Part shown: positions 31,491 through 64,000 of the stretch, one piece after another
Layout of the letters: each line of letters begins with the position of its first letter
Position numbering within the stretch: position 1 is the first letter of the stretch
NCBI GenBank assembly: GCA_964016885.1
Contig: OZ024745.1
Coordinates: 35,712,001 to 35,776,000 of the forward strand
DNA: 64,000 bases
Reading direction: 5' to 3'
DNA from: Eledone cirrhosa
Taxonomy: Eukaryota
The notes under the pieces: generated by a model
Told to the model about the DNA's origin: nothing
Database searches by the model: none
Seen by the model: only the letters and a program-made list of their open reading frames with translations
Made by a program: the position numbers and the translations under genes

Positions 31491-31564
31491 TAGTAACCTG
31501 GTTGATAGTACAAACAATTTGAATGTTTAAATTTACGTCACGCATATATTTTATATTTCTTAAT

Positions 31565-31669
31565 GTCCTCTGATGAAATGGTCGAACTTAAATGTATTGT
31601 AAATTGAGTTGCACTTCTCCAGTATCTAGCAATTGATAGACAACTCTATCATGGAAACAATTGTAAGAC
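31565..31669 (+). ncRNA. Type-I hammerhead ribozyme-like motif with long stem II
   Basis: gtcct-CTGATGA-a-atggt...atcat-g-GAAA-CAATTG-TA-agac. Palindromic stem III (ACAATTGT), GUA site, imperfect stem I; (TA)n follows at ~31717. Confidence 0.55.
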
Positions 31670-31865
31670 TAAATAAATTCCGTTGTTTCTACTATCAACG
31701 ATGTTATTCTTAACTTTTATATATATATATGCAGAGGTTATATTTAATTTGTTGGGATTCAACAAGCTTAAACATTTTATAACTGATATAAAGCACTCAA
31801 CAATTTAGTGGAGTAAATATACAATATATTAATAAATGGAAACTATATTTATAAAACCATAATTA

Positions 31866-31927
31866 TTTTATTGTATATATTTCAAGAGCCACCAAGGTAA
31901 ATTTTGGTGCGATTTCATCAGATAAAA
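31866..31927 (-). ncRNA. Hammerhead motif (left arm), C at position 16.1
   Basis: Reverse complement: ttttat-CTGATGA-aatcgcacca...tggtggctctt-GAAA-tatata-CA-ataaaa. Confidence 0.7.
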
Positions 31928-32344
31928 TACAGATTTGTTTGATAAATACATATTGACATACCCGGAAAAAAGCAACCTCAACGGTCGAAATTCGCTGGAT
32001 AGTGGAGATAATTGAGGGTGATACAGAGTTGTAAGTGAATATATAACAGAGTGTCAGAAATATTGAAAAAACAACGGCTTATTTAAATTAAACTGTTGGA
32101 CAACTGGTTTATTTAAATTAAACTGTTGGAAGAAAATAGATGTAAAAGGGTGAGAGACATCTATTTTCTTCCAACAGTTTAATTTAAATAAACCAGTTGG
32201 TTTTTCACTTTTTCTGACACTCATTTACATATTCACTCACAACTCTGTATCACCCTCAATTATCTCCACTCTCCAGCGAATTTCAACAGTTGAGGTTGTC
32301 TTTTTTCCGGGTATGTGAATATTTATTCATAAAACAAATCTTTA

Positions 32345-32406
32345 TTTTATCTGATGAAAGCGCACCATAATTTACCTTGGTAGCCCTTGAAATATATACA
32401 ATAAAA
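32345..32406 (+). ncRNA. Hammerhead motif (right arm), C at position 16.1
   Basis: ttttat-CTGATGA-aagcgcacca...tggtagccctt-GAAA-tatata-CA-ataaaa; stem I ttttat/ataaaa is perfect. Confidence 0.7.
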
Positions 32407-32510
32407 TAATTATGGTTTTATAAATATAGTTTCCATTTATTAATATATTGTGTATATATATATATATATATATATATATATATATATATATATATATATA
32501 TATATATATA

Positions 32511-59373: not shown

Positions 59374-59617
59374 GGTTAAACATTTTCATATATATATATA
59401 ATTATATATATATATATATATATATATATATATATATATATATATATATATATATATATATATATATATATATATATATATATATATACATACATATTTA
59501 TATGTATATTATATGTGTGTGTATGTATATATATATATGTATGTGTGTGTGTTAGGTAATTCCGAATATAAGGCAAAGGAAAAAAGAGTGCTCTATGTAT
59601 AGAACATAGCTATTTAA

Positions 59618-59819
59618 TTAGAAATTGAACAACACAAAATATAATTACTCCATTACCAAAGGTTTCACGATCATAGATGTTAATAATATAAATCTCGTTT
59701 CATATTTTTTATCCATGACATCTCTGTCTGACGACCGATCCAGACGTATATTATTATCGTCTATGATCCAGAAACCTTTGGTAATGGAGTAGTTATATTT
59801 TGTGTTGTTCAATTTCTAA
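59618..59819. mobile_element. ~200-bp foldback carrying a hammerhead (59722-59789, +)
   Basis: Arms TTAGAAATTGAACAACACAAAAT... and ...ATTTTGTGTTGTTCAATTTCTAA. HHR: ctctgt-CTGACGA-..gatc.agacg...cgtct.gatc..-GAAA-cc(ttt)gg-TA-atggag. Confidence 0.8.
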
Positions 59820-59974
59820 ATATATATACATATATATATTTGTAAAAGTTCTATTTAAAATTGTTGGGATACAACAAGTAAATATTTTATAACTGATATA
59901 AAGCACTCGACAAGTTTTTGGAGTAGATATACGATATTAAATAAATGGAAACTATATTTATAAAACCATATTTA

Positions 59975-60035
59975 TTTCATTATACATATTTCAGGGATAC
60001 CAAATTAAAATATGGTATGCCTTCATCAGACAAAA
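59975..60035 (-). ncRNA. Type-I hammerhead ribozyme
   Basis: Reverse complement: ttttgt-CTGATGA-aggcatacca...tggtatccct-GAAA-tatgta-TA-atgaaa. Confidence 0.8.
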
Positions 60036-61495
60036 TACAATATATAAACAGTTTTATAAATAATTTTGTCGTACCCTATTAGATGCAACCATTATTTTTG
60101 GAAGCTGTCTGGATAGTGAGATGTTTATAATTATTTTATTAGTTATAGTGTTAAACACAGTTAGAAAAAGACGGAGAGAAAGAAAAAACGGAGAGAGATG
60201 AGGATAGAGAAAAAGAAGGAGAGAGAGAAAAAGAAAACCTGGAGAAATACCGGAGAGAGAGAGAAATGTATGTAGAAAAGAGAGATATAAATAGATAGGA
60301 GGAAATAAAAAAGTAAGAAAAAAGGAAGAAATAAGAAAAACAAAAGAAAGCAACAGAGAGATAATAATTCATCATATAGATAGAGAAACTCAAGAGAGAG
60401 GTAATACTGTATAGAGAGAGGGGGATATAGTGACAACTTTACGTCATGTCATATTAAGTTGAGTTAACAATTCATATGAAATGAATAATAAAAATGTAAA
60501 TAGCAATATTCATGAATGGGACATAGATATATAATATGAGAAAATAACATTGTTCAATAATGACCATATGTTTAGTTTAAAATCTTGAGGTCAATATACC
60601 AAAATCTGAGTTAAAACCTTCAAAAAACCTTCAAAAAATACCCTATTTATAAAAATACGGATACAAATATGTATATATATATACACACATATGTACGTCC
60701 TGAAAAAATAAAATTGTGTACTCCAGTCAATAATATAGACACACAAATGATTTCACTTGATTCATTCTATACATTTCTTGTGTTATAAAAATTTCACAGT
60801 ATATATACATAAAAATACGATTAATATTCATGTCCTCATATATATGATTACCGTTCATGTATTTAATATTATGCATATCTGCAACACACATCCACATATA
60901 CACACACAACCATATATACACATACATATGTATAAATAAATATCTGCGTGAGTCTTCCAGCATCGTCATGCATATATACAGACATATATACAAACACATA
61001 AATAAACCCTATAAAACCTTTATATGCATGTTAATACACACATATGGCCTTTGTATAGAGATTAATCAAATATCAATATATTAATATAGAAATATCAAAG
61101 CATTAAATATCTTTAAAACACTATAGAGTATCTCAAGTTAAAATAATATGTTTTATATATTTATTATAGAAATCTATCCTATCTATATCTCAAACAAGAT
61201 ATTGCAAGGGTAGACATATGAAAGTTATTAGAAGCTATCAGAGTCAAAACAAATAAAAAATAAAAATAATTTAAAAGATTTAGAAGACTCAGTGATTCTA
61301 CAGATACCCTTATATTTAGTATAGAAATTTATTTTACGTATATTTTATTTAATACATTGGGAGCATATACATTTTAGAGTAGTTTATTATATCCTTGCTT
61401 ATATTTAGGAAGAAAGTTTAAAATGAAAAAGGTGAAGGAATCTAATGATTTATCGTCAGGTTTCATATATTAACTAAATTTCGTAATTAATTATA

Positions 61496-62836
61496 CTACA
61501 TTTTAAATTTATATTTATATTTAAACGTTGAGTTCAATCTATGTCTGCAGCAACTGAATAAATTGCTCCTTAAATTAAGGGAATTTTTGGACTTTAATAT
61601 AAAGAATATTTCTTCTATACAAAGATCACAACTCTCTGAAGAGGAATTAAAAGGAGTACCTTTGAGACAATATTCCAAATCATCGAATATTTAATATTTT
61701 CTCGTTTAAGGTGCCAGAGTAGGCTAGATAGCGAAGTTGAGGATTTTTTGTTTGGATCTGTGAAAGAATTCTTATGATTATTGAAGCGAAGTTTAAATTC
61801 TGTCGAGGTGGAACCAACATAGTTGAAAGAATTTAAATTAGTTTTAACATTACAATTGTACACTACATTTTTAGCTAAGCAGTTGTTATTTAACGGACAG
61901 TTAGATTTATTTCTACAGTTACAGTTATTTAATTGAATATTGTTTGAGTTATTATTGGTATTTTGGTTAGGTTTTAAATTACCTATTATTAATTCTGTTA
62001 ATATTTTGTGCTAAATTTTTGGTGGACGAGTAAGTTCATTTTTTAGTGTGTCTATTAAAAATTGAGTGATATTTATGTGTTCTAGGGAAGCGTTTGTCAA
62101 GAGCATTAAAGAATAGTTTAGCAATATGGCTTTTAATATTTAGTGAGAAAGGGGGGGCAAACGATAATATATTTCTAGTTCTATTTCTTTTTCGGCTTTT
62201 GGAATTATTGTAATGTTTTCTATTATAGTTGTTAAAGTTGTTACCGTAATTAAAATTGTTATTATTTTGGTTAGTTTGCTTATTATTATTATCGATGTAT
62301 TTAATTTTATCTCTATATCCTGCTCTAGCTAATGCTTCATTGTAATACTGCGCTTTTTCATCAAAAATATTTTTATTAGATGAAATTCTTGAAGTTCGTT
62401 CTTGAACAGAGTTCACTATAGTATTTTTAACAGATCTGGGGTGATTAGAGTTAAAATTGACATAATTCAAGTTCTCATTTAGTTTGTGAAATGGATAATG
62501 AAGACATGTGTTGAGATTTAGTGTTACATCCAGAAAATTGACTATTCTATGGTTATTCTCTATTTCTATTTTTAGATTAAGGTAATTAAAAAATTGTATA
62601 ATTTGTTTTCTTTTTCTATTTAGTTCACAGCTATTATTTTCAATAAGTAAAAGCATGTCAACACGTTATAATCCTCCGGTTACACCTGGTATTTTTCTAT
62701 GTAGCGAGTTAATTATAAATAGGCCCACAAGGTCCGTTACCTGAGCTGAGTCTGATGATCCCATAGTTATGTCGAAATTATTATCTCTATCTGCCCTAGT
62801 CCATAGTTGGTTATTAAATTCTATCAATGTTTTCCT
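61496..62836 (-). pseudogene. PLE RT plus GIY-YIG endonuclease, with stops and frameshifts
   Basis: FDITMGSSDSAQVTDLVG, GL*RVD (GLYRDD-like), VNFLDVTLNL, SNHPRSV, FAPPFS, CNCRNKSNCPLNNNCLAKNVVYNCNV...YVGSTSTEFKLRFNNHKNSF, CDLCIEE and CCRH. Confidence 0.92.
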
Positions 62837-64000
62837 TGATAAATCATTAGATCCCTTCACCTTTTCCATTTTAAACTTTCTTCCTAAATATAAGCAAGGA
62901 TATAATAAACTACTCTAAAATGTATATGCTCCCAATGTATTAAATAAAATATACGTAAGATAAATTTCTATACTAAATATAAGGGTATCCGTAGAATCAC
63001 TGGGTCTTCTAAATCTTTTAAATTATTTTTATTTTTTATTTGTTTTGACTCTGATAGCTTCTAATAACTTTCATATGTCTACCCTTGCAATATCTTGTTT
63101 GAGATATAGGTAGGATAGATTTCTATAATAAATATATAAAACATATTATTTTAACTATAGTGTTTTAAAGATATTTAATGGTTTGATATTTCTATATTAA
63201 TATATTGATATTTGATTAATCTCTATACAAAGGCCATATGTGTGTATTAACATGCATATAAGGGTTTTATAGGGTTTATTTATGTGTTTGTATATATGTC
63301 TGTATATATGCATAACGATGCTGGAAGTCTCACGCAGATATTTATTTATACATATGTATGTGTATATATGGTTGTGTGTCTATTTGTGGATGTGTGTTGC
63401 AGATATGGATAATACATGAACGGTAATCATATATATGAGGACATGAATATTAATCGTATTTTTATGTATATATACTGTGAAATTTTAATAACACAAGAAA
63501 TGTATAGAAGGAATCAAGTGAAATCATTTGTGTGTCTATATTATTGACTGGAGTAGACATAATTTTATTTTTTCAGGACGTACATATGTGTGTATATATA
63601 TATATACATATTTGTATTAGTATTTTAATAAATAGGGTATTTTTTGAAGGTTTTTTGAAGGTTTTAACTCAGATTTTGGTATATTGACCTCAAGATTTTA
63701 AACTAAACATATGGTCATTATTGAACAATGTTATTTTCTCATATTATATATCTATGTCCCATTCATGAATATTGCTATTTACATTTTTATTATTCATTTC
63801 ATATGAATTGTTAACTCAACTTAATATGACATGACGTAAAGTTGTCACTATATCCCCCTCTCTCTATATAGTATTACCTCTCTCTTGAGTTTCTCTATCT
63901 GTATGATGAATTATTATCTCTCTGTTGCTTTCTTTTGTTTTTCTTATTTCTTCCTTTTTTCTTTCTTTTTTATTTCCTCCTATCTATTTATATCTTTCTT

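What the first reader, a model, noticed from the sequence alone, without database searches (positions are those of the whole stretch)
31500..64000. Graded series from coding Penelope elements to tiny hammerhead palindromes: a foldback, ribozyme-bearing non-autonomous system in (TA)n
Seen: the same tail-out architecture (two 3' ends pointing outward, joined head-to-head, with (TA)n outside) occurs at >4 kb (59840-64000, with ORF), 2.5 kb (34010-36482, with ORF), 0.7 kb (31733-32455, no ORF, same family as 59840), 0.33 kb (56636-56971) and 0.2 kb (59618-59819). Established: PLEs carry hammerheads in their pLTRs and can form inverted pLTRs. Inference: progressive truncation of such insertions yields MITE-looking palindromes. 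With an intact HHR on each strand (as in 31733-32455), these could self-cleave from either direction of read-through transcription, fold into long dsRNA, and perhaps be remobilised in trans as a retrozyme-like class.
Basis: partly seen in the sequence, partly recalled or inferred. Interest (0 to 1): 0.75.

Follow-up and report, generated by a model that had tools for sequence, protein, structure and literature searches.

The report
Back-to-back Penelope retroelement insertion stubs
The five DNA hairpins are real, but each has a join found nowhere else in the genome and they come from five different families, so they are most likely ordinary one-off insertions of Penelope-type jumping genes (two cut-short copies joined back to back), not a new self-cutting mobile element.

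Summary
All five tail-out foldbacks exist, but they are not one truncation series and show no sign of moving as units. They come from five families. Four are ends of coding Penelope-like elements (PLEs). The fifth (56636) is a ~438-bp non-coding tandem hammerhead unit of retrozyme type. Each of the five junctions has 1 genome hit (itself), against 4,425 hits for a control motif. Of 122 relatives, 117 carry the PLE 'tail' on one arm only. The two arms share template variants, and the tail does not follow arm length. This fits two cDNAs primed from opposite target strands and joined head to head. The layout is published for PLEs, and this scan has met it on other DNA. Both hammerheads of 31733-32455 carry U16.1C (13 exact genomic matches vs 1,860 with U), and the two small hairpins hold only one motif each. 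The duplex is predicted to bury it (22-80 kcal/mol). An unlisted neighbour (59199-59387) shares its apex with 1,306 places. Its family shows about 30 apices in 50 loci and no apex clade, so this is a sharp 5' stop point, possibly a capped start site. Ordinary, with one testable mechanistic lead.

The parts
31733..31813 (-). Family C tail (one end only)
   Evidence: unpaired extension, 81% match to 59848-60076 region; tail on one arm in 22 of 22 C foldbacks
31814..32159 (-). Family C left arm (3' end of a coding PLE, 5'-truncated), with 30-bp local duplication 32071-32130
   Evidence: family ORF upstream in L183, L217, L218
31865..31930 (-). Minimal type I hammerhead, U16.1C at 31873
32158..32455 (+). 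Family C right arm, no tail, ends in (TA)29
   Evidence: junction unique
32342..32412 (+). Minimal type I hammerhead, U16.1C at 32399
34013..34089 (-). Family D tail
34013..36142 (-). Family D long copy: 5'-truncated, broken RT-thumb/GIY-YIG frame (about 36142 to 35040), 3' UTR and end
   Evidence: longer N-terminal frame directly after an upstream copy's tail in L179, L181
34114..34164 (-). Hammerhead-shaped motif with family-wide U4A and U-U at 10.1/11.1
36143..36204 (.). 62-nt junction filler taken from another repeat family (P), a copy of which lies at 36508-36906
   Evidence: right-hand join unique
36205..36483 (+). Family D inverted arm without tail, with second U4A motif (36410-36459)
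56636..56784 (-). Family A short inverted arm, no tail, no hammerhead core
56785..56998 (+). Family A long arm plus tail (56972-56998): 3' part of a ~438-bp non-coding tandem unit
   Evidence: junction unique
56787..56836 (+). Single hammerhead, damaged in this copy (A9G, stem II change)
59199..59387 (-).
59556..59689 (-). Family B tailed short arm (tail 59556-59610)
59690..59826 (+). Family B long arm without tail, one type I hammerhead (59722-59790; 10.1/11.1 unpaired); pLTR of a coding PLE
   Evidence: junction unique
59840..62837 (-). Family E long copy: tail 59840-59931, canonical hammerhead (core from 60029), UTR, broken 5'-truncated RT/GIY-YIG frame (62837 to about 61500)
62838..64000 (+). 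Family E inverted arm without tail; continues 346 nt past the window with a second canonical hammerhead
   Evidence: junction unique

Best explanation
The five foldbacks are single-copy joins of two 5'-truncated ends of five Penelope-like families, each likely made in one insertion event by target-primed reverse transcription in a TA microsatellite. Shown: PLE-type parents; unique junctions; a tail on one arm only; arms that share template variants; joins with short microhomology or copied filler. Inferred: the PLE protein cuts both target strands and starts two cDNAs at the two neighbouring start sites on one RNA, or on sibling RNAs (one start includes the tail, one does not). Each cDNA stops on its own, and host end-joining links them head to head. 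Inferred: sizes cluster because each family has preferred 5' stop zones near the pLTR hammerhead (a start site or RNA stems), which makes short products look MITE-like and makes some joins recur. Predicted: read-through RNA forms a long duplex that silences any hammerhead, so the foldbacks are dead ends. The units that move are the coding PLEs and, for family A, a ~438-nt non-coding tandem RNA likely copied in trans.
For: Junction patterns: 1 hit each for 5 of 5, against 4,425 for an internal family-A motif. Relatives form foldbacks of many sizes: A 34 of 46 loci, B 48 of 54, C 9 of 29, D 12 of 30. Mapped junctions: 47 in B with none identical, 36 in A with two identical pairs, whose joins have 10 and 2 genome hits. 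Tail on exactly one arm in 117 of 122. Tail on the longer vs shorter arm is 17:17 (A), 16:23 (B), 6:7 (C); a snap-back of a single tailed cDNA would not give a tailed short arm. Arms disagree at diagnostic sites less than independent copies would: A 13 vs 50 expected, B 34 vs 75, C 11 vs 79, D 4 vs 10. Foldbacks from different C subfamilies each have matching arms and their own join (9 of 9 short ones). pLTR directly before an ORF: 7 of 16 B loci and L179/L181 for D. The layout is described in PMC8557442 and PMC3846280; two-strand cleavage and two RT start sites were shown in vitro in PMC11167929.
Against: No junction intermediate or RNA was observed; twin priming is an inference. Arm agreement could also come from later conversion between arms. 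Family D shows the tail on the longer arm 10:0, but its query forced a long tailed arm. Shared-derived alleles in D (3 vs 1.9 by permutation) are not above chance. Family B has 34 of 207 discordant diagnostic cells and the window's A copy 2 of 4, so some pairs may come from two templates. Family G has one apex in 1,306 places, and in one G subfamily 7 of 7 such copies have the apex the same way round to the tail. Pfam did not recognise the D or E frames; their PLE identity rests on motifs read by eye and on structure. Loci were the best-scoring 30 of each search, not random samples.
Confidence: 0.82

Rival explanations
1. The foldbacks are PLE insertion by-products made by self-priming: one cDNA (or an antisense template, as proposed in PMC3846280) folds back at a stem and copies itself.
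For: Joins recur at RNA stems: the hammerhead stem-I complement gives the 10-hit A junction, and C joins cluster at an upstream hairpin. Arms share template alleles. 19 of 36 A joins overlap by microhomology.
Against: The tail sits on the shorter arm in 46 of 86 scored A, B and C foldbacks, and both arms are tailed in 4 A loci; a copy of a tail-less first strand cannot gain a tail without a further template jump. Filler is present in 31 of 47 B joins, and one is a 62-nt piece of another family.
Confidence: 0.1
2. Some fixed-apex foldbacks (best candidate: family G, 59199-59387) are themselves transcribed and re-copied in trans by PLE protein, as a hairpin-SINE class.
For: 1,306 places share the window's G apex at up to 2 mismatches. 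Two apices account for 16 of the first 50 listed G foldbacks (hand count). Twin priming on a hairpin RNA would also give matching arms and a tail on either side, so those tests do not exclude it. Apex orientation is 7 of 7 the same in one subfamily.
Against: About 30 different apices among the first 50 of 3,141 (hand count). 1 of 26 incidental tailed G arms has this apex. Same-apex copies are no closer to each other (0.102) than to other-apex copies (0.100; permutation p 0.575; 11 vs 13 copies) and scatter over subfamilies. The short copies lack the hammerhead core and the upstream region.
Confidence: 0.06
3. The small palindromes are MITEs of a TA-targeting DNA transposon.
For: Small size, high copy number (first-look candidates 3,124 and 1,970), TA flanks, long inverted arms; family B copies cluster at 195-230 bp.
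Against: Ends are asymmetric (tail on one arm), junction and length differ by locus, single-arm and tandem copies are common, and B and G ends are attached to RT/GIY-YIG frames.
Confidence: 0.02

Closest known systems
Complex insertions of endonuclease-bearing Penelope-like elements (PMC8557442 Fig. 2 legend and text, passages; PMC3846280, passages and Discussion)
   Same: Partial tandems forming pLTRs, an inverted 5'-truncated copy at the 5' end, a tail at one end only, hammerhead in the pLTR, (TA)n targets, head-to-head polarity.
   Different: Tails here are about 32-92 nt (30-40 in the papers). Counts are far larger than in the rotifer. The data here favour two separately primed cDNAs over the self-priming proposed in PMC3846280.
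Poseidon element PAc in vitro (PMC11167929, parts 1-2 of 4 read)
   Same: Two neighbouring RT start sites that define the tail, cleavage and extension of both strands, AT-rich targets, hammerhead cleavage not needed for insertion.
   Different: The parts read do not reconstitute head-to-head products; the families here were not placed on an RT tree, and their motifs look Nematis-like from recall only.
Animal non-LTR retrozymes (PMC7229834, passages; bioRxiv 10.64898/2026.07.22.740005, part 1 of 5 and passages)
   Same: Family A: non-coding ~438-bp head-to-tail unit with one type I hammerhead per unit, thousands of copies, dimers present.
   Different: Slightly longer than the 220-390-bp units in the passages read; most copies are sub-monomer stubs or foldbacks with PLE-type tails; circular RNA and cleavage untested; no autonomous partner found.
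LINE-1 twin-priming 5' inversions and extra 5' G from cap copying (recalled, not from a call)
   Same: Two target-primed cDNAs joined by microhomology; a G before the apparent RNA start in family G.
   Different: In L1 (recalled) the two cDNAs cover different parts of the RNA; here both start at the 3' end and overlap almost fully, giving a palindrome.

Membership tests
EN+ Penelope-like element | Single frame with RT followed by GIY-YIG endonuclease | tested here: met
   Read by eye in broken frames of D and E and longer frames of D relatives with YRDD and YIG motifs; tblastn links C, B, G ends to such frames. Pfam gave no hit for D/E frames.
EN+ Penelope-like element | Partial tandem: upstream 3' end (pLTR) directly before the ORF | tested here: met
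   D: L179, L181; B: 7 of 16 loci. Not looked for in C, E, G.
EN+ Penelope-like element | Inverted 5'-truncated copy plus one-sided tail | tested here: met
   117 of 122 foldbacks with one tail
EN+ Penelope-like element | Type I hammerhead in the pLTR | tested here: met
   Canonical by sequence in E and in C relatives; B with open 10.1/11.1 pair; D with U4A; G with a degenerate core. Activity not tested.
EN+ Penelope-like element | Clade placement (Nematis, Neptune, Poseidon, Hydra) by RT phylogeny | not tested
   No reference set in hand; 'Nematis-like' is recalled from motifs
Non-LTR retrozyme (family A) | Short non-coding head-to-tail unit with a type I hammerhead | tested here: met
   Direct repeats of period 406-440 in 9 distinct loci among 29 rows; longest stop-free stretch 61 codons on the sense strand, 109 on the other; fold in L152
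Non-LTR retrozyme (family A) | [quoted passage not shown] | tested here: met
   1 of 5 fetched tandem loci (L221, motifs 437 apart)
Non-LTR retrozyme (family A) | Homology to the pLTR of an autonomous PLE | tested here: inconclusive
   No divergent ORF-linked relative among 258 fetched loci; genome not searched for it
Non-LTR retrozyme (family A) | Self-cleavage and circular monomer RNA | not testable with these tools
   Needs RNA data or bench assay
MITE / non-autonomous DNA transposon | Symmetric terminal inverted repeats and uniform length | tested here: not met
   One-sided tail, variable arms and joins
MITE / non-autonomous DNA transposon | Target-site duplication | tested here: inconclusive
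   Flanks are (TA)n, where a duplication cannot be read
Proposed mobile twin-hammerhead foldback | Same junction at many unrelated sites, inherited as a lineage | tested here: not met
   5 of 5 listed junctions unique; G apex recurrent but not a clade in 24 copies
Proposed mobile twin-hammerhead foldback | Intact, foldable hammerhead on each strand | tested here: not met
   U16.1C on both arms of 31733; one motif in 56636 and 59611; predicted penalty 22-80 kcal/mol. 5 of 9 short C relatives do have two canonical motifs, but the core is paired in the predicted fold.

The most novel reading that the evidence does not exclude
The tiniest foldbacks of family G (59199-59387) are full-length double copies of a short capped RNA that starts inside the pLTR hammerhead, and some fixed-apex hairpins (1,306 places share this apex) are re-transcribed and re-copied in trans by Penelope protein: a hairpin-SINE class born from twin priming.
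Probability: 0.07. Interest if true: 0.7.

Novelty: new member of a known kind. Interest (0 to 1): 0.3.

Why it matters
As it stands, it shows that MITE-looking, TA-flanked palindromes in this genome should be annotated as Penelope insertion stubs, and that hammerheads on both strands of such stubs are probably silent. How PLEs form their inverted repeats is named as open in PMC8557442. Three numbers here bear on it and can be tested: one tail per foldback (117 of 122), tail independent of arm length, and arms mostly from one template. The sharp 5' stop in family G, with an excess of G before it, would mark the PLE transcription start and tie the tiny copies to internal initiation if confirmed. 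A self-propagating hairpin class would be a new kind of non-autonomous retroelement, but the evidence is against it.

Tried and rejected
Rfam scan of the window: no hammerhead family at E<=1, only weak hairpin and simple-repeat hits. Pfam on 4 window frames and 3 relatives: only weak RVT_1 hits, none on the D/E frames. Sequencing runs for the family-A unit: no RNA holder listed, so expression, cleavage ends and small RNAs were not examined. RNA-editing trace: alleles shared by both arms showed A>G 18 vs T>C 6 (private 62 vs 69, p 0.015), but C>T/G>A (16/4) and T>A/A>T (12/2) were skewed too, and 60 of 77 came from family C, where subfamily structure confounds it; judged inconclusive. Two large B foldbacks seemed to share a junction. 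Their ORF cuts differ by about 6 nt and their arms by about 30 nt or more, and a third has the tail on the other arm, so this was read as a hot spot. A cluster of 211-256-nt spacings in family C resolved into different joins in different subfamilies. Hammerhead cleavage site as the 5' end: not seen in B (ends are mostly upstream of the core) and only loosely in A. Paper searches: Penelope + twin priming listed 3 papers and Penelope-like/MITE/foldback 15, none on mobile PLE foldbacks by title or abstract start; retrozyme + octopus and octopus + Penelope + hammerhead gave nothing on these families; a search for cap-derived G found 0 papers. No supplements were read; family files in the supplements of PMC8557442 and PMC7229834 could already hold these families. 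Look-ups of earlier findings by sequence for 56636 and 59199 returned nothing.
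Full report
Observation. The window lies in a 3.0-Gb genome with 1,796 contigs. Self-comparison confirms all five inverted pairs and shows six more in the same 32 kb. I call the listed ones C (31733), D (34010), A (56636), B (59611) and E (59840). E runs to 64346 in extended window coordinates, with arms 96.8% alike over 1,527 nt. 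Each element has an unpaired tail on one end. The D and E frames are 5'-truncated RT-thumb plus GIY-YIG pieces with stops and frameshifts, read by eye; Pfam did not hit them.

Five families, not one series. First-look candidates in the genome were 5,149 (C), 3,124 (A), 1,970 (B) and 2,626 (D); 40 were scored and up to 30 loci fetched per search. C matches E at 81% over 234 nt and has its own ORF upstream in long copies (3 of 7 long loci examined). D has a long N-terminal frame right after an upstream copy's tail (L179, L181). The B end lies in sense before an ORF in 7 of 16 loci, so the 0.2-kb hairpin is a pLTR stub of a coding element. A is different. Copies fetched by the tail end show direct repeats of period 406-440 in 9 distinct loci among 29 rows. 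The unit has no long frame, and 1 of 5 tandem loci holds two complete hammerheads in a row. That fits an animal non-LTR retrozyme as defined in PMC7229834 (passages) and bioRxiv 10.64898/2026.07.22.740005 (part 1 and passages). No autonomous partner turned up in 258 fetched loci.

Junction test. Patterns of 30-35 letters across each junction, with 2-3 mismatches allowed, gave 1 hit each, the window itself (for D only the right-hand join of the filler was searched). An internal 23-letter A motif gave 4,425 hits at 1 mismatch. Relatives form foldbacks often (A 34 of 46 loci, B 48 of 54, C 9 of 29, D 12 of 30), with different sizes. The first A and B samples were fetched with whole-foldback queries and so favour similar sizes; repeats of loci found twice were dropped. 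Of 47 mapped B joins none is identical on inspection; of 36 A joins two pairs are. Those two joins have 10 and 2 genome hits. The 10-hit join uses the complementarity of hammerhead stem I; its tail is on the left in 7 loci and on the right in 2, and 1 locus is cut short. Nine short C foldbacks on one contig each have their own join and arms that match each other by subfamily. The D junction holds a 62-nt filler from family P, a copy of which lies about 300 nt away.

Mechanism. The tail is on exactly one arm in 117 of 122 foldbacks, on both in 4 and on neither in 1. Tail-containing queries under-sample 'neither' but not 'both'. The tail is on the longer versus shorter arm 17:17 (A), 16:23 (B) and 6:7 (C); D gives 10:0 but its query required a long tailed arm. 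Arms disagree at diagnostic non-CpG sites far less than independent copies would (13 vs 50, 34 vs 75, 11 vs 79, 4 vs 10). Shared-derived alleles exceed all 200 permutations in A, B and C but not D. PMC11167929 (parts 1-2 read) showed that a PLE protein cuts and extends both strands and starts RT at two adjacent sites that bound the tail. Together these suggest two cDNAs, one from each start site and target strand, joined head to head. This step is inferred. Self-priming (PMC3846280, Discussion read) explains stem-centred joins but not a tail on the short arm. Later conversion between arms cannot be excluded, and the 16% discordance in B leaves room for some two-template events.

Hammerheads. 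By pattern and fold: E has a canonical minimal motif on each arm. D has a family-wide U4A motif with a U-U pair at 10.1/11.1 on each arm. C has C at 16.1 on both arms; the exact 30-letter motif occurs 1,860 times with U and 13 times with C, 2 of them here. PMC3088659 (passages) calls A15.1-U16.1 usually essential and reports at least tenfold loss for mutants there. A has one motif, damaged in this copy; B has one. In a tail-out foldback the antisense arm is always transcribed first. The predicted cost of freeing the motif is 80 (C), 22 (A) and 50 (B) kcal/mol.

The one real test of the novel idea. An unlisted foldback at 59199-59387 (family G) shares its apex with 1,306 places, while the neighbouring 58898 palindrome is unique. 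G is the 3' end of a coding PLE: an ORF lies upstream in sense in 7 of 29 long loci. G occurs in 59 of 307 fetched loci, 12 of them fetched for it. Of 26 incidental tailed arms, 1 has the window's apex and most others stop within about 25 nt of it. A gapped pattern finds 3,141 foldbacks with apices of 12 nt or less. The first 50 show about 30 apices; the window's type has 6 and the commonest 10 (hand count). Same-apex copies form no clade (0.102 within, 0.100 between, p 0.575; 11 vs 13 copies; three duplicate loci dropped). The tail was left in 17 and right in 10 of 27 rows (three of them repeats), never both. So the apex recurs because cDNAs stop at one place. In solo copies that start there after a TA run, the base before the stop is T 48, G 16, C 9, A 4 in the first 77 loci (hand count), and 7 of 50 apices carry a matching extra base (for 2 of them it could be read on either arm, hand count). 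This is suggestive of a copied cap at a start site (recalled from LINE-1; my paper search found nothing), but C is raised too. An RT stall at hammerhead stem II is the alternative. B shows a similar zone: 25 of 28 tail-fetched loci end within -65 to +40 of the core (by eye). One loose end remains: in one G subfamily 7 of 7 same-apex copies have the apex the same way round to the tail.

Comparison and verdict. The layout is published for PLEs (PMC8557442 passages; PMC3846280), and earlier notes of this scan reached the same reading on other DNA; I had written my reading before opening them. The families are probably undescribed members of known kinds; I did not read supplements that might list them. 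Interest 0.3.

Noticed in passing
window 59199-59387: Family G foldback; apex shared by 1,306 places, 3,141 close relatives; sharp 5' stop inside a degenerate hammerhead stem II with an excess of G before it.
   Followed up: yes
window 36508-36955: Family P foldback (84% arms; 981 candidates) with a short tail beyond a TA stretch and no hammerhead fold found; 4 of 14 relatives are foldbacks of other sizes; no ORF linked. It supplied the 62-nt filler of the D junction.
   Followed up: partly
window 58898-59112: 137-bp palindrome with a ~78-nt one-sided extension in (TA)n; junction unique in the genome; no hammerhead fold found.
   Followed up: partly
window 34114-34164 and 36410-36459: Family D carries a hammerhead-shaped motif with U4A, a U-U pair at the base of stem II, a 5-bp stem III and a CUU triplet, kept in all 14 aligned relatives apart from scattered single changes; activity unknown.
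   Followed up: partly
window 38007-39980: Another decayed PLE related to C and E: canonical hammerhead (core from 38108, minus strand) and RT/EN remnant 69% like 61674-61927.
   Followed up: partly
window 54310-55830: 5'-truncated PLE of a different clade (YVDD motif, weak RVT_1, GIY-YIG-like end) with a hammerhead-core pattern at 55772; a close relative lies in L181.
   Followed up: partly
window 40040-40440: Further hammerhead-core patterns at 40077 (+), 40133 (-) and 40411 (-) beside TA runs; my fold routine did not accept the two minus-strand ones.
   Followed up: no
window 47156-47275, 57495-57583/57988-58076, 48061-48320/49467-49720: Three more inverted pairs (100% over 28 nt around a TA run; 92% over 89 nt; 79% over 261 nt).
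   Followed up: no
L259 and L260 (G000 C4:171.50 Mb, C2:385.79 Mb), L269: Three family-B foldbacks cut the ORF within about 12 nt of each other, with different arm ends; read as a stop hot spot.
   Followed up: yes
window 291-31491: About 31 kb of degenerate minisatellite arrays (32-, 15- and 33-bp periods) directly left of the PLE cluster.
   Followed up: no
window 51026-51175 and 51635-53329: A 32-bp tandem repeat (4 copies) and a cluster of direct and inverted copies of one short interspersed repeat.
   Followed up: no
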